From a virus (taxonomy: Duplodnaviria; Caudoviricetes), in IMG/VR virus record IMGVR_UViG_3300032225_000825, positions 1 to 26,381 of that record: a DNA stretch of 26,381 nt. One strand, given 5' to 3'. The position numbers and the translations under genes were made by a program. Position 1 is the first letter of the stretch; the number at the start of each line of letters is the position of its first letter. This document shows, one piece after another, positions 11,228 to 26,381 of this stretch. The notes below the pieces were generated by a model. The model was not told the origin of the DNA. It saw only the letters and a program-made list of their open reading frames with translations, and made no database searches.

Positions 11228-11932
11228 TTACGAATTTGGTTCCGTGATTACGAACTCACCAATGCCATCGAAGCTAGCCTCGCGGCCACCAGAAGGCATT
11301 TCTACGTGAAGTTCGCGTACCTTATACAATGCTCGGTATGCAGTCTGAGAAATTTCTGAGGAAACTCGCAGGCTTATTGCATTAACAAACAGACGCTTTG
11401 CCTGTTCGGTAGCGTCGCGTTTAGCGACGTTAAGGAGGTCCATGCGTCTAAAAGTAGAAGTGATTGTTTCAGTGTCTCCACTTATCACCTCTTTCTCTAC
11501 GATTTCTAGAACTCCAAATCTAACTAAACGTGAACTAAGTAGTTGAGCTAGAATCTGTCGATCATGACGAGGATGCCTTGACCAAGTAGTTATTTGATAA
11601 TCAATATTCACAGGAATGGGAAGATCTACAGAGAACTCAGTGGGAGGGGTAAGGTTTTGGGGGGTACCTGCGGAAACCACACTTCCAAAGTTTGCGGGTT
11701 TTAAGTACTCCGCGTTTGTAATTCCGCGCATTTCTCTTTGGGTATCCCGTTGAAGATCAATCATGTCAATGGTGATGTAGGGATAGTTTTGCGCACGAAG
11801 TTCTTGATCGGGTTGACCAAACCATACGCCTACTTGTCTGGGAATTTCTTGCCCATCAGCTTTTTGGTCGTATACAACAATCCCCTGAAGTTTTTCGCGT
11901 AGAGCTTTATCTTCTGAAAGTAAAAACGTCAT
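11228..11932 (-). CDS. Tail terminator / sheath-capping protein (gp15 / Pvc16-like)
   Basis: Motifs YPYITID and PIPVNIDYQITTWSRHPRHDRQIL. Immediately upstream of the sheath gene. Confidence 0.65.
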   Translation of the reverse strand: MTFLLSEDKALREKLQGIVVYDQKADGQEIPRQVGVWFGQPDQELRAQNYPYITIDMIDLQRDTQREMRGITNAEYLKPANFGSVVSAGTPQNLTPPTEFSVDLPIPVNIDYQITTWSRHPRHDRQILAQLLSSRLVRFGVLEIVEKEVISGDTETITSTFRRMDLLNVAKRDATEQAKRLFVNAISLRVSSEISQTAYRALYKVRELHVEMPSGGREASFDGIGEFVITEPNS

Positions 11933-12246
11933 CGTTTCTTCAGCTCCTTAACCACGTAAGCTTCAAATAACTCGCTAAATCTATCTAGAGGTTCACGGGT
12001 ATTGTTTTTAAAACGGTGGATAGTTCCTTTTCCACTTTGTTCCTGAGTACCAAATTCCAGATCAAAAACAACAGTGGCTGCACCCTCTGCGTGACCTACA
12101 GACATGCCATTTTCCCCGTAACCAACGGTAAGGGCATAAGAAGCTTGCCCCCAACCTTCTTGGGCGGCACTTTCACGCAGCTTTGTTTCCATCTCCCTAG
12201 AGATTTGTTTAGCTGCTTTTTTATATGCGGTAGTAAAAGCCTTCAC
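11929..12246 (-). CDS. Hypothetical protein, possible neck/tail-completion protein
   Basis: 105 aa, with 4-nt stop/start overlaps on both sides. The DLEFGT motif resembles the EFGT motif of HK97-gp10-like proteins. Confidence 0.5.
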   Translation of the reverse strand: MKAFTTAYKKAAKQISREMETKLRESAAQEGWGQASYALTVGYGENGMSVGHAEGAATVVFDLEFGTQEQSGKGTIHRFKNNTREPLDRFSELFEAYVVKELKKR

Positions 12247-12440
12247 TGCTTCCTGCCTGTAAAGGATTGCGGCTTCTCAAAAGAGTTGTTTACGTAACCT
12301 GAGCTAAGCATACCCATCATGACATTGAGAGGGAGGTTGGGCCTGAGACCGTTTGCCCCTTGGGTAAACTCTTTTCGTTCCTCGAATGAAAGATAGTCAT
12401 TAACTTTTTTCCACCAAGGCGTAAAGTCTGGAGAAGACAT
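12243..12440 (-). CDS. Hypothetical protein (65 aa), first gene of the tail operon
   Basis: ATG at 12440 (MSSPDFTPWW) is preceded by AAAGGA. The track start at 12509 falls in the predicted leader. Confidence 0.6.
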   Translation of the reverse strand: MSSPDFTPWWKKVNDYLSFEERKEFTQGANGLRPNLPLNVMMGMLSSGYVNNSFEKPQSFTGRKQ

Positions 12441-12508
12441 CGCAAATATCCTTTTTACAGGCGCAGGTTCTACGTAAACGTAGGTGAGAATCCGCACGGA
12501 GACCCACA
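12441..12508 (-). ncRNA. Candidate structured 5' leader RNA
   Basis: Hairpin GUGGGucUCC-GUGC-GGAuuCUCAC, hairpin CUACG-UUUA-CGUAG, and a downstream CUGCGC complementary to GUGCGG. Confidence 0.4.
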
Positions 12509-12513
12509 CTTCA

Positions 12514-12542
12514 AGGATAGAGGCTTATGGAGCAGTGGGCTG
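12514..12542 (-). promoter_or_regulatory. Putative late promoter CAG-N20-TATCCT
   Basis: Same geometry as the motifs at 18843-18871 and 20150-20178. Heads the tail operon. Confidence 0.55.
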
Positions 12543-12905
12543 GCTAAACTTATTAGACATCCAGTCCTGATTCATTGCTGTCTTATAGGCATGACAATTA
12601 GCACACAAAGTTTGTAGGTTGCTGATGTCGTTGTTTTTTTTATTACCATCAATGTGGTCTACATGAAGTTGGGATGGGTGAAGTGCTTTAAACCCACACT
12701 TTTCACATGCATCTTTTTTGTATTGCCGCCAAGGGGCACTAGCGTTTAAAGTAGCACGTCTATGTGCAATTTTACACCGCCAGTAAATTTCCCCAGAAAC
12801 TTTAAATTTACCCGTAGGAACGATCTTTACTAGCGTCTCGCATACTGAGCAGTAGGCAAGCAAATCTTGCTCATCAATCTCGGTAAGTAAATGGCGTTCT
12901 TTCAT
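12525..12905 (-). CDS. Free-standing HNH endonuclease with zinc-binding Cys pairs
   Basis: CEKCGF...LHVDHIDGNKKNNDISNLQTLCANCH, plus an N-terminal CSVC. Confidence 0.9.
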   Translation of the reverse strand: MKERHLLTEIDEQDLLAYCSVCETLVKIVPTGKFKVSGEIYWRCKIAHRRATLNASAPWRQYKKDACEKCGFKALHPSQLHVDHIDGNKKNNDISNLQTLCANCHAYKTAMNQDWMSNKFSQPTAP

Positions 12906-12911
12906 TTCTGT

Positions 12912-12940
12912 AGCATAGCATTAGGCCCCCTGTCAAACAA
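12912..12940 (-). promoter_or_regulatory. Housekeeping-sigma-type promoter giving a leaderless HNH mRNA
   Basis: TTGTTT-17 nt-TATGCT with extended TGn, then 6 nt to the ATG at 12905. No SD. Confidence 0.55.
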
Positions 12941-12951
12941 GGGGCCTAATG
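12919..12951 (-). terminator. Stem-loop, probable terminator after the basic-protein array
   Basis: Perfect 11-bp inverted repeat CATTAGGCCCC/GGGGCCTAATG, extendable to 15 bp with one G-U pair on the minus strand. Lies 10 nt after the stop at 12962. No clear U-tract. Confidence 0.6.
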
Positions 12952-12961
12952 TTTGTGTTGG

Positions 12962-13105
12962 TTATTTACTTTTAATTGTGGTTTTGCCTTTGGCCACAGC
13001 CTTAGCTTTTTGAGCAGTGGTCTTGCGACCTTTCTGAGAAGTAAGCTTTTTGCCTTCTGCGTTGGTTTCTGAACGCTTGGTCTCTTTACCAAACTTGATT
13101 GCCAT
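12962..13105 (-). CDS. Small Lys-rich protein (47 aa)
   Basis: Not in track. MAIKFGKETKRSETNAEGKKLTSQKGRKTTAQKAKAVAKGKTTIKSK. TAATG overlap with the upstream gene. Confidence 0.75.
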   Translation of the reverse strand: MAIKFGKETKRSETNAEGKKLTSQKGRKTTAQKAKAVAKGKTTIKSK

Positions 13106-13356
13106 TACTTCTTCCCCTTAGCCATGACTTTCTTACGCGCAGCGGCGTCTTTCTTCATGTCTTCCTTCTTGGAGATACCAGGCTTGTCGTGCTTGGCGTC
13201 TTCCTTCTTGAACTTGGCCTTCTGAGCAGGGGTCATGCCACGCATTTCCTTCTTATCCTGGGCCTTGTCTTCTTTTGAATTCAGCCAAGCAGGCTTCTTG
13301 CTGGCTTCTTTACGCTTCTTACAAGCAGCGCACTTACCGCATTTACATGTTGCCAT
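13105..13356 (-). CDS. Small Lys-rich protein with N-terminal CxCxxCxxC (83 aa)
   Basis: MATCKCGKCAACKKRK. TAATG overlaps at both ends, SD AAGGA. Confidence 0.8.
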   Translation of the reverse strand: MATCKCGKCAACKKRKEASKKPAWLNSKEDKAQDKKEMRGMTPAQKAKFKKEDAKHDKPGISKKEDMKKDAAARKKVMAKGKK

Positions 13357-13397
13357 TATTTCTTTTCCTTACCACAGGTGCAATTTCCATTACACAT
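13356..13397 (-). CDS. 13-aa Cys-rich micropeptide
   Basis: Not in track. MCNGNCTCGKEKK*. TAATG overlaps at both ends, and TAAGGT lies upstream of the ATG. Confidence 0.55.
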   Translation of the reverse strand: MCNGNCTCGKEKK

Positions 13398-13555
13398 TAT
13401 TTTACCTTAGTCATTCTTGTCGAAGTGTGCCCTTTTGACACAGCTTTTCCTTTACGCTTTCGCTCCTGAAGGTCCTGTAAACGTTCCATGTTGGAGTTTT
13501 TTCCACGAGTTTTCTTAAACTTATCAAGAGGGCCCTTAGGCTTAGGAGCAGTCAC
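13397..13555 (-). CDS. Small Lys-rich protein (52 aa)
   Basis: Not in track. GTG start in a TAGTG overlap. MTAPKPKGPLDKFKKTRGKNSNMERLQDLQERKRKGKAVSKGHTSTRMTKVK. Confidence 0.7.
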   Translation of the reverse strand: MTAPKPKGPLDKFKKTRGKNSNMERLQDLQERKRKGKAVSKGHTSTRMTKVK

Positions 13556-13731
13556 TATCGTCCCCGTTTTGCAAGGGTCGCCATCTTTTTAACGCCATGC
13601 TTTTTACGACCAACTGCAGCGGCAATAGCCTTGGCTTGCTCAGGACTCTTTCCGCTTTTTTCAACGCTTTTAACTACAGCAGCAAAGCGGCCACCCTGAC
13701 CTAATTTAGCTTTTTTATTTGGCTTTTCCAT
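13555..13731 (-). CDS. Small Lys-rich protein (58 aa)
   Basis: Not in track. MEKPNKKAKLGQGGRFAAVVKSVEKSGKSPEQAKAIAAAVGRKKHGVKKMATLAKRGR. TAATG overlap. Confidence 0.75.
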   Translation of the reverse strand: MEKPNKKAKLGQGGRFAAVVKSVEKSGKSPEQAKAIAAAVGRKKHGVKKMATLAKRGR

Positions 13732-14027
13732 TACTTTTTACCTGCTCTTCGCTTATTCTCTTTGGCCGTATTCTTACCGTGTGCCAGGGGGCGAAGGTTT
13801 GAATCGCGGTCATCTGAGTGCTTATTATTCTTGTGATCCACGTCAGTTCCTTTAGGAAGCTTCCGTCCAGATTTTTGTTCGTAATCTTCTCGAGCTTTGT
13901 TCTTAGATTCAGTTTTCCATCCCGTCGAGGTTTTTACTTTCCAAACGTAGATCTCTCTCCCACCATTTTGAGTTGAGCCTTTATAGGGCCCAAACTTCTT
14001 TCTGGTGCCTATCTTTACCTCAGCCAC
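13731..14027 (-). CDS. Small basic HNH-motif protein (98 aa)
   Basis: Likely GTG start at 14027 (GAGG upstream, 8-nt overlap). Motif DVDHKNNKHSDDRDSNLRPLAHGKN. Confidence 0.7.
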   Translation of the reverse strand: MAEVKIGTRKKFGPYKGSTQNGGREIYVWKVKTSTGWKTESKNKAREDYEQKSGRKLPKGTDVDHKNNKHSDDRDSNLRPLAHGKNTAKENKRRAGKK

Positions 14028-14271
14028 GTCGATGCCTCGCAGTCTTCTTAGCAATCTTTTTGGGCTGGGCAACAAACTGCTTACCAGGCTTGCCTCCATC
14101 TCCCTTAGCCTTTGCACGATTAGTTGCAGCTTTTTCTGCAGGAGTCAGATCTTCCCAAGCTTTTTTAGGAAGATAGCGTTTTTTTCCTTTAGACGGTTTA
14201 CCATCCGAGGTAGTCCACTCTTCCTTAGTCCATTTGTCCAATGAACGCTGAGATTTTGCTTTGGTCGTCAC
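14020..14271 (-). CDS. Small basic protein resembling the C-terminal half of DUF5872-like proteins
   Basis: SQRSLDKWTKEEWTT...RYLPKKAW...GKQFVAQP. GTGA overlap. Confidence 0.7.
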   Translation of the reverse strand: MTTKAKSQRSLDKWTKEEWTTSDGKPSKGKKRYLPKKAWEDLTPAEKAATNRAKAKGDGGKPGKQFVAQPKKIAKKTARHRRG

Positions 14272-14465
14272 TTGTAGCCCCCACCAGCCTTCTTGTATTC
14301 TGCCGCGAGGAGCTGGGCTTTACGGGCCGACCATTCGCCAGGATCTCCGCCTTTGGTTCCAGCTTTGATCTGCTTAAAAAGCCGCTCTCTAAGAGCAGGC
14401 TTGGTGTAATTGCCTGCCTCGTTTACTCGCGACTTTGACTTGGCCGCTGGTTTCTTAGTAGCCAT
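14268..14465 (-). CDS. Small basic protein resembling the N-terminal half of DUF5872-like proteins
   Basis: NYTKPALRERLFKQIKAGTKGGDPGEWSARKAQLLAAEYKKAGGGY. TAATG overlap. Confidence 0.75.
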   Translation of the reverse strand: MATKKPAAKSKSRVNEAGNYTKPALRERLFKQIKAGTKGGDPGEWSARKAQLLAAEYKKAGGGYK

Positions 14466-14680
14466 TACTTAATCCTTGGGTGCTCTCGGTGAAACTTCTT
14501 AGTATCTTTGACGCCTTGCTTAACAGTCTTGGCCCCAGACAGTTTGGTCAGGTTCATGCGTTCTTTTTTTCCTGACTTGCTGTTCTGCTCAACGATAATA
14601 TCGCCTTTGCTACCAGCGCCCTTGTCAACCTTCTTCTTAGTAACAGTGTGTTTTTTGCCACCAGCCGTAATTCGGGCCAT
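14465..14680 (-). CDS. Small Lys-rich protein (71 aa)
   Basis: ATG at 14680 in a TAATG overlap. MARITAGGKKHTVTKKK. Confidence 0.75.
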   Translation of the reverse strand: MARITAGGKKHTVTKKKVDKGAGSKGDIIVEQNSKSGKKERMNLTKLSGAKTVKQGVKDTKKFHREHPRIK

Positions 14681-14970
14681 TACCACTTCACCTTGTTGGC
14701 CCAGTAAGCAGCAGACATCTTGCCTTTAGCAATGTTCTTGGCGTGGCGAGCCTGAAAAGACTCGCGACGCTTGCGGTAGGCCTCAGACTCGCCCTCTTTC
14801 TTGGGGGAGCCTTTTACGCCATGCTGTCCAAAACGAATTAGCTTAACCTGGTCACCCTCTTTAGCAACAACTACGTGAGAGTGCTTGGGGTCGTTAGGGG
14901 TAGCCTTAGGCTTGTTGTAGCCAGACACTCCAGCTCGTGCAAGTCTGGGGTCTTTCTTTTTTTCTGCCAT
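14680..14970 (-). CDS. Small basic phage protein (KLIRFG...RH...AYWA type)
   Basis: 96 aa, SD AAGGA. Motif KLIRFGQ...RRESFQARH...MSAAYWANKVKW. Confidence 0.8.
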   Translation of the reverse strand: MAEKKKDPRLARAGVSGYNKPKATPNDPKHSHVVVAKEGDQVKLIRFGQHGVKGSPKKEGESEAYRKRRESFQARHAKNIAKGKMSAAYWANKVKW

Positions 14971-15005
14971 TATATTTCCTTTGTTCTTTTAGCTTGTTTG
15001 GTAGT

Positions 15006-15844: not shown

Positions 15845-16894
15845 CTATTTTCCCTTATAGAAGACCAGATTGTTTGCCAATCGCTCGTCAGTTGGGTCGA
15901 GTTCAGCCGCTTTAGTTCCCAGCTCCAGTGCTTCTTTAAGGAGCCCTAAGTAGTAGGCCGAAATAGCTGCAAGATCCCAGGGCAATGGGCCCCAAGCAAA
16001 CTCTTCGCAGAGGTAATCTAAGGGCTTGTCTAAAATGTTTAGCGCGCTATTTGCAGCTTCATAGCATTTAGCCCATTCTGATTTCTGATAGTAAAACTGA
16101 GCAAGATCTACCCAGGGCTCGCGCCTTGCTTCATCCTCAAGAGTAGCTGATATAAGCCACTTCTCAGCGTTATCGAGCTCACATTTAGAAAGGTAGCGCA
16201 TAGACGCTGCACGTTCTGGCCGCCACTTTGCTGTAGGAAGATCAAGGTGTCTCCTAAACTCCTTTGCAGCCTCTTCTCGCTGACCATAAAAGTACAGTTC
16301 TCGAGCGTAATAATACGCGTTGCGATCATCATAGGGGTCTTCTTTTACAGATAGAGCTAGTAAAGGAAGGTAGCTTGAGCGCGGTTTAGCCGTATCTGGG
16401 TGGTGGTGAATCTCAAGCCCGCACCAGCCCTGGACCTCCTCGATGCGATCAGCAATGATAACCTCATGTACGGGGTGCTTCCATACGTACCCTTTACGGG
16501 TATGAATTTTATCTCCACCATATTGAAGGCCAGGAGTGCCGTCTTCTTTCCAAGACCAGGTGTATTGGTATCTAGGTCGGGTTATGCCTGATTCAAAAAG
16601 TCTTTCAAGCTCGGGACGCCATCCTTCTTGCAAAGTTTCATCCATATCCAGTGCAACACAATAATCAATGTCCAAAGGAAGGGCAGCAAGAGAAGTGTTA
16701 CGAGCAACATCGAAACGCCAAGGATTAACCCCAATAGAAACCACGTTAATTCCAAGATTTTTTGCTTTCTCAATAGTGTTGTCTGTAGATCCAGTATCAG
16801 CAATCAGCAGATAGTCCGCTTCTTTAGCTGAGTTATACCATGATTCTACAAACTGTTCTTCATTTAGTGCAATAGTGTATACGCCGATTTTCAT
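15845..16894 (-). CDS. Family 2 glycosyltransferase with C-terminal TPR repeats
   Basis: Motifs IALNEE, IADTGSTDNT, FDVARN, DxD motif LDMDE and PVHE. The helical C-terminal half is TPR-like (YYYAREL, WVDLAQFYY, AAELDPTDERLANN). Confidence 0.92.
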   Translation of the reverse strand: MKIGVYTIALNEEQFVESWYNSAKEADYLLIADTGSTDNTIEKAKNLGINVVSIGVNPWRFDVARNTSLAALPLDIDYCVALDMDETLQEGWRPELERLFESGITRPRYQYTWSWKEDGTPGLQYGGDKIHTRKGYVWKHPVHEVIIADRIEEVQGWCGLEIHHHPDTAKPRSSYLPLLALSVKEDPYDDRNAYYYARELYFYGQREEAAKEFRRHLDLPTAKWRPERAASMRYLSKCELDNAEKWLISATLEDEARREPWVDLAQFYYQKSEWAKCYEAANSALNILDKPLDYLCEEFAWGPLPWDLAAISAYYLGLLKEALELGTKAAELDPTDERLANNLVFYKGK

Positions 16895-21394: not shown

Positions 21395-23395
21395 TTACCA
21401 GTAAAGGAGTACGCATCCGTTGCCCCCGTTGCCACCTAAGAAATTAGCGCTATCGGGGCTGCCCCCTCCACCACCGCCACCAGTTCCTCCAGCACCACCA
21501 CTGGCTCCACTCGAAGTAGTTGCAGCTGTTCCATTCCCTCCTGCTCCTAGGTATCCTCCACCTCCGCCTCCACCGCAGTATTTAGTAGATGCTGTTCCTG
21601 ATGAAAGAGACGGTCCAGTTCCTCCAGAGTAAACTCCCGAACCTCCTGCTCCTCCAAATGCGTCGGCAATGTTAGAGACAGTCATTCTTGCAGCACCGCC
21701 ACCACCACCAACAAAACCAGAGCCACCTACTCCTCCTGTAGCAGTGCGGGCTGCACTTGATGTTCCGCTTTGGTTTGCTCCCCCTCCACCCCCACCAGAG
21801 GTTCCCGCTCCACCACCAGAAGCTGTAGCAGCGCCTGTAGAGCTACTTGCGGACGCTCCACCACTGCCTCCTATAGAGTACAGTAAGTTAGTTCCAGATG
21901 CTGTAGTTCCAACAGTTCCCGAATTACCTGCGCCATAAGTTAAAGATGGGGGTGTTGTGGCACCGCCAATTCCTCCAGCGGCATAAAGAGTGCCATAGAT
22001 GCTTGGGTCTCCATTACTTGTATACGGGTAATAGCCACCACGACCAATGGTTACGGCAGTAGAGCTAGGAACAAGTCCCCAAACAATTGCACCGCCTCCA
22101 CCTCCAGATCCCTGAGAAATGTTTCCTCTTCCACCGCCGCCAACAACAACTGCAAAAACCACTTGTGGAGGACTACCAAAACTACTCATAGAAAGAGCTG
22201 TCATGGCAGAATTCGTTTTTACAATACTTTGATAATTGGCATCTCCTTGCCAAGAGTTAAACTTTCCACCAACAAGAATTTCACCACTAGATAACTCAAT
22301 TGCAGTAAAAACTTTTCCATCTGAACTATATGCTGAAAAACTTTGGTCTACATAACCATTAAGAGTGTATCGTACAAGACTAGCTCCTCCTGTTGTATCA
22401 GTTACAAGAGCTTTTCCATTAGATAAAATAGTAATAGAGGTTGGGTAGTCTTGACCAGCAGTATTAGTCTGACTATCAAAAAACGTATCAACAGTCCCAT
22501 TAGAATTAAGACGAACAAGCCCATTTGCAGAGTCATTACCATTCCATGCATCAAAAGACCCTCCAACAATAATTTTTCCATCACTTTGTATAGCGACACA
22601 AGTTGTACTTCCCGTGCTATTCGACTCACCATCAAAATATGTTGGACCATCCCCTAACGCACTTATAAATGCAGTATCTAATGTTCCATCAGAATTAAGA
22701 CGACATAACGATGGGACATAGGTTCCAGAAACTAGATCACGAGATTGACCAGCAAGAATAATTTTTCCATCACTTTGTATAGCGATATCATTAATCGGAG
22801 TATTAGGACCAGAATCATACGTACGAGTAAAGGAAGAATCCATAGTGCCATCAGAATTAAGTCGAATGATTGAAGAGCGATAAGCTCCATTCCAATAATT
22901 GTTGCCGCCTAAAAGTATCTTTCCATCAGATTGAAGAGCTATCGCATAAGGTACTCCATTTAATGAGCCAATATTATTTTTAAATGCAGTATCTAATGTT
23001 CCATCAGAATTAAGACGAACAAGCCCTGTTGTACTGATGCTGTTAAAAGCATACATCTGTGCTGTAACAAGGATTTTTCCATCATTTTGTAAAGCTACAT
23101 CCGTTAAAACAGGACTTGGGTAACTAGCTTGAAAGCCAATTCCAAGATTTTTAGAAAAACTAGTATCTAAACTTCCATCAGTATTAAGTCTTACAATAAA
23201 TCTTGAAGTTAGTGGAACACCGCACCACTTATCAAAATCTCCTATGATAATAACTTTGCCATCAGGTTGTTGAACAATTTTTCTAACAGTATTGTACTCT
23301 TCAGAAGCTGTAATGCTTGTTCGAATATTTATCTTGGTGTATGAAGAATCAGACATTTGATGTCTAAGTACAAAGTCTTTAGGAATAGGAATCAT
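21395..23395 (-). CDS. Adhesin-like protein: delta-60 (DUF5122-type) beta-propeller repeats plus Gly-rich C-terminal domain
   Basis: Likely start is the ATG at 23395 (MIPIPKDF), 4 nt after the upstream stop. Repeats of QxDGKIxxxG...RLNSDGTLD. The Gly-rich tail ends GGNGCVLLYW. Confidence 0.85.
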   Translation of the reverse strand: MIPIPKDFVLRHQMSDSSYTKINIRTSITASEEYNTVRKIVQQPDGKVIIIGDFDKWCGVPLTSRFIVRLNTDGSLDTSFSKNLGIGFQASYPSPVLTDVALQNDGKILVTAQMYAFNSISTTGLVRLNSDGTLDTAFKNNIGSLNGVPYAIALQSDGKILLGGNNYWNGAYRSSIIRLNSDGTMDSSFTRTYDSGPNTPINDIAIQSDGKIILAGQSRDLVSGTYVPSLCRLNSDGTLDTAFISALGDGPTYFDGESNSTGSTTCVAIQSDGKIIVGGSFDAWNGNDSANGLVRLNSNGTVDTFFDSQTNTAGQDYPTSITILSNGKALVTDTTGGASLVRYTLNGYVDQSFSAYSSDGKVFTAIELSSGEILVGGKFNSWQGDANYQSIVKTNSAMTALSMSSFGSPPQVVFAVVVGGGGRGNISQGSGGGGGAIVWGLVPSSTAVTIGRGGYYPYTSNGDPSIYGTLYAAGGIGGATTPPSLTYGAGNSGTVGTTASGTNLLYSIGGSGGASASSSTGAATASGGGAGTSGGGGGGANQSGTSSAARTATGGVGGSGFVGGGGGAARMTVSNIADAFGGAGGSGVYSGGTGPSLSSGTASTKYCGGGGGGGYLGAGGNGTAATTSSGASGGAGGTGGGGGGGSPDSANFLGGNGGNGCVLLYW

Positions 23396-23399
23396 GTTA

Positions 23400-26381
23400 T
23401 CACCAGTAAACCAATACTGCGCCGCCACCGCCAGCTCCACCAGTACCACCAGAGCAAGCTCCTCCGCCTCCGCCGCCGCCAGAGCCACCAGCTCCACCAT
23501 TTCGGTTAGTAGCACCAGTACCCTGTCCTCCTGCTGCTCCTGCTCCAAGGTATCCAGTGCCTCCTGAACCACCAGCGTTTTTTCCAAGTGTAGATGTTGC
23601 CACGGTTGCAGAACCAGCAGTTCCAGCACCAAAATACCCAGCTCCACCTGCTCCACCTGTTGCTACACCAGTTGTTGTGCTATTGATTGCGGCAGCTCCA
23701 CCGCCCCCACCTACCTGCCCAGAACCACCAGTACCTCCAGTGGCTGAAAGTGTTGTTGATGTTGTCATTGCTGATCCACCACCTCCACCAGATACTGCAG
23801 TAGCAGGAGCTGCAGGAGCCACAGCAGCAGTACCTGCCGTTGACGTGCCACCAGCACCACCAACAGAATAGGCAAGCGTTGAGCCAGATGCACCAGTAAT
23901 AGAACCCGCGGTAACGGTACTACCCGAGCCTCCCGAGCCAGCACCGTTAGTTGAGGCTGTACCAACAGCAGATTGACCTCCAGCTGCCCCACCTTGAGCG
24001 TATAAGCCCGAATACGTTGTTGCACCGCCAGAACCTGCTGCAGTAGAGCCTGTAGCTCCTGTTCCACCAGTTCCGATAGAACACACGGTAGAAGCAGAAA
24101 CCCAGCCAGAAACAATAGCACCTGCACCTCCACCTCCACCAGTTTGATAGTTCACGTTTGTTCCATTACCCCCACCACCACCTGCGCCAATGACAACGGC
24201 AAAAACTACAGAGGGAGCACCAGTAGTGTCAACAGTTGTTCCTGAAGTAATGGTTTGGCGAAGTTGAGGTCGTGTAGCGGTATAAACGCTATTAGAAGTA
24301 GCTGCTTTAGTAGTGTCACCACTTGTGGGGGTATCGTTAAGTTGTACCGCACCCTTTACCGAAGTTGTTGCATCCGCAATAAAAAAGGAGGCTCCTGTAG
24401 GTCCTGACAAAGATAGCGGAGAGTTAGCAACTGTAATTCCCTTAGGACCCGTAGGACCTGTAGGACCTTGATCACCAAGCGCATAAAATTCAGCAACAAT
24501 TTCTTCACCATTAGTAAAGTACGCTCCAGCGCTACTCAGGTAAGTAACATTAAAACTATACCAGTCGGTAAACTCACCAATATTTAGACCACCACTATTT
24601 AGTGCAAACCATACCTGAGACGCATCAGAGTTGCTATTGCTGCGTAACCTTAAGTAACCTTTAACTGAAGAGGTTGATGACAACCAGGTAGCTAAATACG
24701 GAAATAGGTAAGTGTTGTACACGTCATAAGCACCAAACTGCACAATATTCATGGATGAAAATCCAGTTGCAGAATCGTTGTCTCTTACTTGACCACTCGG
24801 AACCTCTCCAGAACCTAAAGTACTGAATGTCATTTTTATTCCAGGACGGTCGCCTTGAGCACCTGTAGGCCCTGTGACTGTAGAAGCAGCGCCTGTGGGG
24901 CCAGTGGGTCCAGTAGGACCAGTTACAGTACTTGCCGCACCTGTTGGACCAGTGGGTCCTGTAACAGTACTCGCTGCCCCTGTAGGGCCCGTAGGGCCTG
25001 TCGGACCAGCTACTGTTGATGTGGCTCCTGTTGGGCCAGTAGGTCCCGTAACTGTGGAAGCAGCTCCTTGAGGACCAGTAGGCCCAGTTGGTCCTGTGAC
25101 TGTAGAAGCAGCGCCTGTGGGGCCAGTGGGTCCAGTAGGACCAGCTACAGTACTTGCCGCACCCTGTGGACCCGTAGGTCCCGTAGGACCAGTGACAGTA
25201 CTGGCAGCACCTGTGGGACCAGTCGGCCCAGTGTTACCCAGCACTCCCTGGATACCTTGAGCACCTGTTGGTCCCTGAGCACCTGTCGGCCCTGTAGCTC
25301 CTGCTAGTCCTGTGGCTCCTGTTGGGCCTGTTGGTCCCGTAACCGCAGATGCCGCTCCTGTTGCACCTGTAGGACCAGTTGGGCCAGTGACTGTTGAAGC
25401 TGCCCCTGTTGCACCTGTAGGACCCGTCGGACCAGTAACCGTTGACGCAGCACCAGTGGGACCTGTAGGACCTGTTACAGTGCTGGCCGCACCTGTAGCT
25501 CCAGTTGGGCCTTGAGATCCCGTAGCCCCAGTAGGGCCTGTCGGCCCTGTGGCTCCAACGGCACCCGTAGGTCCAGTAGGTCCCGTGACTGTTGAGGCTG
25601 CGCCAGTAGGTCCTGTGGGTCCTATAGGGCCTACATTTCCTACTGAAACAATAATAAAAAGAACAGAATGATTGTTCGGGAAGTTTGTTGTACCTATACC
25701 GCTAGAGGAAACAAGAGTTACAGGAAACTCGTCATAGGTAGCGTTGTAGGTCGGTGTACCCGACACTTCCCACTTCTGGTAGTTTGCAGCAACATTTTCG
25801 TCCTGAATAATGAGCACGTCATTTTGGTTAATCAAGTCAAGGAAAACAGAGTTGTCTTGATTATCCGCGTCTAGGTGGTTCACTCTTAGGGTGGTTGAAT
25901 TAATTTGAGTTGTGTTGTTCCAACCAAGTTGGTTTGCGGTAGGGTCGCCGCTTGTTGTGTTAGTTCTAGTGGCGTAGTGGTAGTGGGACGAACTATCCCC
26001 TGAGGCACCTTGTGGACCAGTAACACCTTGGGCTCCCGTGGGGCCCGTTGAGCCTACGGCACCAGTAGGTCCTGTGGGGCCTGTAACTCCTTGGATACCA
26101 GTTGACCCCTGAGCGCCTGTTGGTCCTGTTATTCCTTGAATTCCCTGCGCACCCGTTGGCCCAGTAACTCCTGGGATTCCTTGAGTACCCTGAGGTCCAG
26201 TGGGGCCTGTGACTGTAGAGGCTGCCCCTGTTGGGCCAGTAGGTCCCGTAGGTCCTGTAACTGTTGAGGCGGCTCCTGTAGGACCAGTTGGTCCTACAGC
26301 TCCTGTTGGGCCCGCTACTGTTGAAGCGGCTCCAGTGGGGCCCGTGACTCCCTGGTTTCCTTGGATACCTTGCGCACCCTG
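23400..26381 (-). CDS. Long collagen-like fibre with two globular inserts, a fibre repeat and a Gly-rich tip; 5' end beyond window
   Basis: The frame stays open upstream of the track start (25883) to the window edge ([14 protein letters not shown]). Contains GPT triplets, [12 protein letters not shown], and ends [10 protein letters not shown]. Confidence 0.9.
24871..25163. repeat. 71-bp direct repeat (24871-24941 and 25093-25163, one mismatch) within the collagen-coding array
   Basis: cctgtgactgtagaagcagcgcctgtggggccagtgggtccagtaggaccag[t/c]tacagtacttgccgcacc occurs twice, 222 bp apart. Confidence 0.85.

What the first reader, a model, noticed from the sequence alone, without database searches (positions are those of the whole stretch)
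12962..14970. Chain of ten translationally coupled, highly basic microproteins between the neck and tail genes
Seen: ten ORFs of 96, 71, 65, 83, 98, 58, 52, 13, 83 and 47 aa tile 2 kb with no gaps. They are joined by TAATG (six junctions), GTGA, TAGTG and one 8-nt overlap. All are Lys/Arg-rich (15 of 47 residues in the last one) and differ from one another in sequence, and a strong hairpin closes the array. Four are absent from the ORF track. Inference: a co-expressed set of nucleic-acid-binding peptides, such as protamine/histone-like internal capsid proteins that condense or protect DNA, or co-injected effectors. Their position in the morphogenesis region favours packaging into the virion.
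Basis: partly seen in the sequence, partly recalled or inferred. Interest (0 to 1): 0.75.

Follow-up and report, generated by a model that had tools for sequence, protein, structure and literature searches.

The report
Swappable basic mini-protein cassette in phage
An uncultured tailed phage carries ten back-to-back genes for tiny, mostly lysine-rich proteins, drawn from a shuffled pool shared by many aquatic phages; they likely ride inside the phage head bound to the DNA, but no function has been tested.

Summary
A shuffle null never exceeds five chained ORFs. ORF1-5 are under strong purifying selection (dN/dS 0.01-0.03). All 65 distinct arrays recovered at this locus (window included) hold 4-14 small basic genes, with heavy turnover. 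Cultured BRock, the closest relative checked, has none.

The members are not protamine-like filler. ORF1 and ORF2 are predicted folded. ORF5 keeps an HNH nuclease motif. ORF3+ORF4 are halves of a protein that is a single chain in many bacterial chromosomes. ORF1 and DUF6321 never share an array (20 / 37 / 0 both) and swap repeatedly.

In other phages the same modules are fused to each other, to a portal found in purified virions, and into polyproteins after prohead-protease-like motifs. Best reading (0.45): non-essential internal head cargo that binds the genome, working like T4 internal proteins but lacking their targeting leader. Packaging of these stand-alone proteins is not shown.

This scan has already reported the same gene pool on other DNA (e1-6077497, e1-3506896 and others). 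I found no paper describing it.

The parts
14680..14970 (-). ORF1, 96 aa, net +15; phrog_7595; predicted folded alpha/beta module; remote relative of DUF5754; alternates with DUF6321 in related arrays
14465..14680 (-). ORF2, 71 aa, net +15; no catalogued family; predicted small beta-sheet plus C-terminal helix; in 37 of 65 arrays
14268..14465 (-). ORF3, 65 aa; phrog_17747; N-terminal half of a split protein, always with ORF4 in these arrays (30 of 30)
14020..14271 (-). ORF4, 83 aa (GTG start); phrog_14910; C-terminal half of the split protein
13731..14027 (-). ORF5, 98 aa (GTG start); HNH (beta-beta-alpha-Me) motif D64 H65 N77 N86 invariant in 37 of 37 aligned; predicted nuclease; in 38 of 65 arrays
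13555..13731 (-). ORF6, 58 aa; weak phrog_2423 match; found fused to the ORF4 module elsewhere
13397..13555 (-). ORF7, 52 aa (GTG start); fast-diverging basic peptide (best relatives 37-42% identical)
13356..13397 (-). ORF8, 13 aa Cys micro-peptide (three Cys); identical in L085; possibly metal-binding (inferred)
13105..13356 (-). ORF9, 83 aa, net +18; CxCxxCxxC N-terminus plus Lys/Asp-rich body; commonest family (57 of 65 arrays), usually last or near last
12962..13105 (-). ORF10, 47 aa; fast-diverging basic peptide (best relatives 31-42% identical)
12919..12951 (-). 15-bp hairpin closing the array; equivalent of the hairpin+U-tract terminator of relatives, U-tract lost here
14971..15005 (-). 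35-nt spacer; likely the 3' remnant of a deleted eleventh array gene that is intact in L085 and L086
15224..15826 (-). upstream anchor gene (200 aa), homolog of BRock gp142; likely neck/head-closure (inferred from position)
11228..11932 (-). downstream anchor gene (234 aa), homolog of BRock gp139, directly before the tail sheath gene

Best explanation
This is a conserved, translationally chained cassette of small basic genes at what is likely the terminator-closed end of a late head/neck transcript, and its products are likely non-essential internal head proteins that would bind the packaged DNA and leave the head with it. Shown: the genes are real and selected, the locus is shared by all 65 arrays examined, its content is reshuffled, and the modules recur fused to portal and head-type polyproteins. 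Inferred: coupling gives roughly matched late synthesis, and the proteins enter the prohead or are drawn in with the DNA by charge. Also inferred: each folded member fills a defined slot (ORF1 or DUF6321; ORF3+ORF4 as one unit; the HNH protein), while short Lys- and Cys-rich members add charge and metal binding. The likely benefit is handling and protecting the genome in the particle and at entry, not bulk condensation.
For: Real genes: dN 0.014-0.041 against dS 1.0-1.9 for ORF1-5 versus L086; ORF8 identical in L085. Locus: 82 loci held both anchors, giving 65 distinct arrays, each with 4-14 basic ORFs; 249 of 400 basic-basic junctions overlap by 1 nt. A strong hairpin follows in 45 of 65. Head link: for 56 ORF1 loci (96 of 122 large neighbours scanned), 28 have terminase, portal, capsid, head closure, scaffold or head protease as nearest large gene on at least one side. 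Phage MEP402 has DUF6321-ORF3-ORF4 directly before terminase and portal. Fusions: the ORF1 module is in 1662 longer proteins, with portal, InPase, kinase, ADP-ribosyltransferase, Zeta and cytidylyltransferase domains. CL131 gp012 is portal + ORF1 module + InPase + MuF. It was found in CsCl-purified virions with 59 peptides and 42.6% coverage, more than the portal domain's 26% (PMC6293099). S-SZBM1 virions hold gp139, which bears a module found in 11 of 65 related arrays, and the cytidylyltransferase gp140 (PMC9146016 Table 1). Joints: a candidate protease motif precedes the fused ORF1 module in 58 of 78 proteins against 16.4 expected, and [ILVFM]-x-E in 40 against 9.9; T4 gp21 cuts after L/I-X-E (PMC9026906 s2.5). 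An xxGG motif precedes the ORF2 module in 11 of 12 long fusions inspected. Slots: ORF1 20, DUF6321 37, both 0, neither 8; 6 independent pairs go the opposite way, median p 0.03. Also 0 of 80, and 7 vs 19 with 0 both, in two other locus sets.
Against: No stand-alone member was seen in any virion proteome I could read; the mass-spectrometry evidence is for fused relatives and does not name peptides from the module itself. The ten proteins share no leader or capsid-targeting sequence. The junction motifs were chosen after looking at the sequences; the module's own N-terminus often holds an E; the R/Y/F-x-D motif was not enriched (4 vs 5.1) and the K motif only weakly (5 vs 1.8). 28 of 56 ORF1 loci lack a named head gene next door, and in P12053L the ORF1 relative lies three genes after the peptidoglycan-binding protein, at the end of that gene arm. 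The fused ORF3-ORF4 protein sits among housekeeping genes in bacterial chromosomes, with net charge from -11 to +52 (one over-long ORF call aside), so its job need not involve a capsid or charge. BRock has both anchor genes and no array. DNA binding is inferred from charge only.
Confidence: 0.45

Rival explanations
1. Late proteins that act inside the infected cell and are not packaged: packaging cofactors (ORF5 as an HNH partner of terminase, a role recalled for HK97 gp74), binders of host or phage nucleic acid or ribosomes, or lysis-timing factors.
For: No leader sequence. HNH motif intact and selected. Position near lysis genes in P12053L. Chromosomal ORF3-ORF4 fusion in bacteria. No stand-alone member in the virion lists I read.
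Against: Fusion to a virion-detected portal/MuF protein and into polyproteins after protease-type motifs. Those virion lists were tryptic where stated, which is poorly suited to 25-35% Lys/Arg proteins (inference).
Confidence: 0.22
2. Packaged, co-ejected counter-defence or host-takeover effectors, each with a specific host target, like T4 IPI.
For: Heavy gene turnover (15 state changes on a 65-row tree for the ORF1/DUF6321 slot). Small folds. Fusion partners are InPase, ART, kinase and MuF, which PMC5512222 describes as packaged conflict domains. IPI precedent (PMC9026906).
Against: ORF1 is 60-75% identical in phages of Roseobacter, Celeribacter and Synechococcus and has dN/dS about 0.01, which fits a universal ligand such as DNA better than an arms race with host proteins.
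Confidence: 0.2
3. Protamine/histone-like bulk condensers that neutralise the genome.
For: Summed net charge +132 over 666 residues; median +106 in relatives. 14 of 65 arrays have an acidic micro-ORF that could be a chaperone.
Against: Lys exceeds Arg. ORF1 and ORF2 are predicted folded (pLDDT 85, 89). Invariant Trp/Gly/His residues. Slot-like exclusivity. 300 copies of each (22 MDa) would cover only 22% of the phosphates of a 90-kb genome. BRock lacks the array.
Confidence: 0.08
4. Nearly neutral passenger genes spread by the HNH member or by recombination at a tolerant spot.
For: Members are gained and lost freely; deletion scars in the window, L090 and L140; HNH motif in ORF5.
Against: Strong purifying selection; no array-less locus among 65; strict ORF3/ORF4 linkage and ORF1/DUF6321 exclusion.
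Confidence: 0.05

Closest known systems
T-even internal proteins IPI, IPII, IPIII (PMC9026906, sections 2.3 and 2.5 and passages read)
   Same: Small, basic, variable between relatives, individually dispensable; IPs bind DNA in low salt and are ejected. Fused relatives of ORF1 follow an L/I-x-E-type motif like gp21 sites.
   Different: No sequence match reported in Pfam, PHROGs or PDB searches; no capsid-targeting propeptide; BRock-like rather than T4-like phage; ten coupled genes in a late neck operon; members shared across podo-, sipho- and myophages and bacterial chromosomes.
PHROG families 7595, 17747, 14910, 2423 and Pfam DUF6321, DUF6496, DUF5754, DUF5872
   Same: ORF1, 3, 4 and 6 match these PHROGs; related arrays hold DUF6321 and DUF6496 above cut-off; ORF1 resembles a DUF5754-bearing cluster (Atlas 0.95, 47% of members).
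   Different: All are of unknown function and catalogued singly. ORF1 is below the DUF6321 cut-off and had no DUF5754 hit; ORF3 and ORF4 had no DUF5872 hit.
Phage polyvalent / MuF-portal fusion proteins (PMC5512222, 12 of 23 passages read)
   Same: The ORF1 module occurs inside portal-InPase-MuF and ART-bearing proteins proposed to be packaged and injected.
   Different: In this window the modules are solo genes with no enzyme partner; the passages I read do not mention these modules.
HNH (beta-beta-alpha-Me) endonucleases, e.g. PDB 1u3e
   Same: ORF5 keeps DH..N..N, aligning to 1u3e residues 72-100 (E 0.11).
   Different: Only 98 aa, under strong purifying selection, and fixed inside the array, unlike the sporadic HNH gene next door (16 of 65).

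Membership tests
T-even internal proteins | small, basic proteins at a variable locus | tested here: met
T-even internal proteins | 10-19-residue N-terminal capsid-targeting propeptide cut after L/I-X-E | tested here: not met
   No shared leader in the ten ORFs; the motif is seen only before fused relatives in other phages.
T-even internal proteins | packaged at hundreds of copies and ejected | not testable with these tools
   Only fused relatives are seen in published virion lists.
Protamines / histone-like condensers | arginine-cluster, low-complexity, unfolded chain (recalled definition of protamines) | tested here: not met
   K>R in all ten; ORF1 and ORF2 predicted folded.
Protamines / histone-like condensers | histone or HU/IHF fold | tested here: inconclusive
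   No such Pfam hit for nine ORFs; only ORF1 and ORF2 were modelled and neither gave a significant fold match.
HNH endonucleases (ORF5) | catalytic His with metal-binding Asp/Asn and structural Asn | tested here: met
   D64, H65, N77, N86 invariant in 37 of 37; HNH_3 24.0 bits against cut-off 24.8.
HNH endonucleases (ORF5) | DNA cleavage | not testable with these tools
   needs an assay
DUF6321 (ORF1) | Pfam gathering score or profile homology | tested here: not met
   14.4 bits against 28.5; profile-profile probability 3.9%, only an RRxSFxAR stretch aligned.
DUF5754 (ORF1) | Pfam match | tested here: inconclusive
   No direct hit; Atlas 0.95; the ORF1 profile hits three proteins that carry a precomputed PF19058 label.
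DUF5872 (ORF3+ORF4) | Pfam match | tested here: inconclusive
   No hit for ORF3 or ORF4 or for five fused chromosomal forms at 1e-7; P0368, made of ORF1+ORF3+ORF4 modules, carries a precomputed PF19197 label.
Polyvalent proteins | several conflict domains in one polypeptide | tested here: not met
   Window ORFs are solo genes; met only by relatives such as CL131 gp012.

The most novel reading that the evidence does not exclude
Aquatic tailed phages of many unrelated families share an undescribed, modular 'virion chromatin': a kit of small folded DNA-binding proteins with fixed interchangeable slots (ORF1 or DUF6321; ORF3+ORF4; an HNH protein; Cys metal-binding peptides). The kit is delivered either as coupled solo genes or as protease-released pieces of portal and head polyproteins, and it protects the genome in the particle. 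One component is the same protein that many bacteria keep on their chromosome.
Probability: 0.2. Interest if true: 0.8.

Novelty: new variant of a known kind. Interest (0 to 1): 0.52.

Why it matters
These modules are very common in aquatic phages: about 6700 stored IMG/VR stretches for ORF1 and 494 GenBank phage records for DUF6321. All are annotated 'hypothetical'. If they are internal head proteins, tailed phages use DNA-associated cargo far more widely than the T4 example suggests, and trypsin-based virion proteomics may have missed it. The ORF1/DUF6321 swap and the split ORF3/ORF4 pair give sharp, testable predictions, and cultured carriers exist (P12053L, HMO-2011, MEP402, S-CBS2).

Tried and rejected
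Chance ORFs from the A-rich strand: rejected. Fold searches: no significant PDB match for ORF1 (Foldseek none at 1e-3; best VIA Z 2.4, rmsd 4.0, 52 aligned; sequence search none) or ORF2 (best Z 4.8, rmsd 3.1, 54 aligned); this shows neither a new fold nor a different one. ORF3-ORF4 complex prediction: no verdict (score 0.01). Sequencing runs: no RNA holder listed. Rfam: no match in the window. NCBIfam: nothing. Atlas for ORF2: only unnamed viral clusters under 0.9. No convincing sigma-70 promoter before ORF1 (7 sites vs 9.6 expected). ORF1 and DUF6321 as homologs: not shown. Other exclusions (ORF4 vs family F9; ORF5 vs DUF6496) did not pass the independent-pairs test (p 0.06-1). The 'Peptidase_S78_2' label on GR7B_00016 was set aside: the gene is 124 aa with no Pfam hit. 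ICP1 ORF125, a putative head protease (PMC8096241, passage), is a fold hit at E 0.06 only. A stress-island context for the chromosomal ORF3-ORF4 fusion was not found: neighbours vary, with one UvdE and two RecQ (62 proteins scanned). S-CREM1 and S-SCSM2R virion lists gave nothing usable; I read passages and part 1 of 4 of one supplement. Literature: ten searches found no paper describing the array; DUF5754/DUF5872 appear only as gene labels in the one passage read. Subscription papers and bioRxiv supplements were not searchable.
Full report
OBSERVATION. The ten ORFs, their lengths and their nine junctions are as stated, on the minus strand. K+R is 23-35% against 3-15% in 19 other genes of the window, and lysine exceeds arginine in every one. 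ORF8 is better called a Cys micro-peptide. The hairpin at 12951-12919 is real (z -5.0) but lacks a U-tract. In 1000 shuffles the longest chain of overlapping ORFs was five. Against the orthologs in L086, ORF1-5 have dN 0.014-0.041 and dS 1.0-1.9. ORF9 has dN/dS about 0.27, ORF8 is identical in L085, and ORF6, 7 and 10 have only distant relatives (31-59% identity).

SETTING. The window is the late region of a contractile-tailed phage: fibres, lysin, glycosyltransferase, then the array, then sheath, tube and baseplate genes. The closest cultured sheath proteins are those of Streptomyces phage BRock and its kin (39% over the C-terminal 44%). BRock has homologs of both anchor genes in the same order but no array between them. 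An actinobacterial host is therefore an inference only. The longest related contigs reach 90-95 kb.

THE LOCUS IN RELATIVES. Searches with the two anchor genes gave 39 and 80 loci. 82 held both anchors, window included, and these reduce to 65 distinct arrays; some near-copies remain. All 65 hold 4-14 small basic ORFs by my filter, which also counts an occasional flanking gene. 249 of 400 basic-basic junctions overlap by one base, and 14 arrays include an acidic micro-ORF. A hairpin, mostly with a U-tract, follows in 45 of 65, so the array is likely the end of a transcript. Content is shuffled: 48 clusters with two or more members and 96 singletons. A frame-independent check gives ORF9's family in 57, ORF5 in 38, ORF2 in 37, ORF3 and ORF4 together in 30 and never apart, and ORF1 in 20. 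Relatives also use DUF6321 and DUF6496. The 35-nt spacer before ORF1 matches the 3' end of a gene that is intact in L085, and L090 and L140 carry an ORF1 start joined to the end of the upstream gene. Short-homology deletion is the likely route of turnover.

SLOTS. ORF1 and DUF6321 never share an array (20, 37, both 0, neither 8). The ORF1 state changes 11 times on the tree, and six independent pairs go opposite ways (median p 0.03). The pattern repeats in two other sets: 0 of 80 ORF1 loci hold DUF6321 within the DNA held, and 80 ORF3 loci split 7 against 19 with none holding both. None of 439 fetched proteins has both. The two are not shown to be homologous. A possible exception is phrog_727, which matches both DUF6321 and, weakly, ORF1-bearing proteins; I did not resolve it. 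ORF3 and ORF4 are one polypeptide in 51 of 80 genome loci, including Myxococcus, Corallococcus, Fibrella, Rubrobacter and Acidobacteriaceae records, among housekeeping genes and with variable charge; they are separate genes in 25.

WHAT THE PROTEINS LOOK LIKE. ORF1 (pLDDT 85) and ORF2 (pLDDT 89) are predicted compact alpha/beta folds without a significant PDB match. ORF5 keeps D64, H65, N77 and N86 in 37 of 37 sequences and aligns weakly to an HNH homing endonuclease. ORF1, 3, 4 and 6 belong to PHROG families of unknown function. ORF1 occurs in 49 GenBank phage records, among them SIO1, P12053L, HMO-2011 and S-CBS2; ORF3 in 19 and ORF4 in 17.

LINK TO THE HEAD. Of 56 ORF1 loci whose nearest large neighbours were scanned (96 of 122 neighbours; near-duplicates dropped), 28 have a named head gene next door, 4 more a 'virion structural protein', and 24 neither. 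The ORF1 module is part of 1662 longer proteins, at the C-terminus in 170 of 206 examined. Partners include portal, InPase, kinase, ADP-ribosyltransferase, Zeta and cytidylyltransferase domains, and other array members. Among the best 120 ORF4 fusions, 16 are ORF4-ORF1, 2 are ORF1-ORF3-ORF4 and 4 are ORF4-ORF6. CL131 gp012 joins portal, the ORF1 module, InPase and MuF. It was found in purified particles with 59 peptides and 42.6% coverage, which exceeds the portal domain alone, but peptide positions are not given (PMC6293099, passages and Table S5 row). S-SZBM1 particles contain gp139, which bears a module present in 11 related arrays though not in this window (PMC9146016, Table 1 and section 3.4). 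A candidate protease motif stands just before the fused ORF1 module in 58 of 78 non-redundant proteins (16.4 expected): hydrophobic-x-E 40 against 9.9, xxGG 9 against 0.3, K-type 5 against 1.8, D-type 4 against 5.1. These motifs were chosen after inspection. T4's head protease cuts after L/I-X-E (PMC9026906). The ORF2 module follows xxGG in 11 of 12 long fusions inspected.

MECHANISM. Shown: selected genes, a fixed locus, coupling-type junctions, a closing hairpin, swapping, and fusion to head proteins elsewhere. Inferred: late co-translation, entry into the head, DNA binding and ejection. I put packaging of at least some members at about 0.7 overall. Within that, general genome handling and protection (0.45) ranks above specific counter-defence (0.2), because ORF1 is 60-75% identical across phages of unrelated hosts. 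Bulk condensation ranks low (0.08): 100 copies of each protein would cover about 7% of the phosphates of a 90-kb genome. An unpackaged late role stays open (0.22), since the proteins lack a targeting leader and no stand-alone member was seen in a virion list.

COMPARISON. It works like the T4 internal proteins, which are small, basic, variable, dispensable and DNA-binding in low salt (PMC9026906). It is not a member of that family, because the targeting propeptide is missing. It is not a protamine set. Several members are catalogued singly as PHROGs or DUFs. Ten literature searches found no description of the array; subscription papers are mostly outside the library. This scan has noted the same pool on other DNA, once in the same neck-tail position; those notes are not independent support.

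VERDICT. A real and widespread feature, a new variant of the variable internal-protein cassette idea, with function untested. Interest 0.52.

Noticed in passing
window 12435-12525, minus strand: Conserved -10-like TAnnnT box followed by a structured leader before the next gene: a hairpin with a conserved TGCG loop and a stem covering the likely ribosome-binding site. 9 of 14 predicted pairs show two-sided changes in 35 sequences; no Rfam match. Possibly a translational control element of the tail operon.
   Followed up: partly
window 12525-12905, minus strand: A second HNH gene lies between the terminator hairpin and the -10-like box; present there in 16 of 65 arrays, like a homing endonuclease.
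   Followed up: partly
window 12243-12509, minus strand: The listed 88-aa ORF probably starts later, near 12440; relatives have a 57-69-aa protein with a PWW motif.
   Followed up: partly
L183:4984-5109, L192:4906-5028, L194:3735-4085, L201:4876-5013: Very acidic micro-ORFs (net -20 to -40) at the head of the basic array; 14 of 65 arrays have an acidic micro-ORF; candidate chaperones or DNA mimics.
   Followed up: no
L232:2364-3435, L234:2469-3405, L239, L240: Chthoniobacterales contigs carry DUF6321 directly before the fused ORF3-ORF4 gene, the same pairing as in phage MEP402.
   Followed up: partly
L272:3013-4598: Fused ORF3-ORF4 gene directly followed by a UV-endonuclease UvdE gene; L265 and L279 have RecQ next door. 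Isolated cases.
   Followed up: no
window 15845-16894, minus strand: Glycosyltransferase with TPR repeats (phrog_13126) inside the structural region, two genes before the array; may modify virion proteins (inference).
   Followed up: no
window 21395-23656, minus strand: Fibre-region protein with a DUF5122 beta-propeller and a Gly-rich tail.
   Followed up: no
BFVD hits of the ORF1 model: Weak fold hits to proteins labelled ChaB and XkdF, to ICP1 ORF125 and to a 95-aa Tunisvirus protein (E 0.04-0.9); possible link to giant-virus DUF5754.
   Followed up: no
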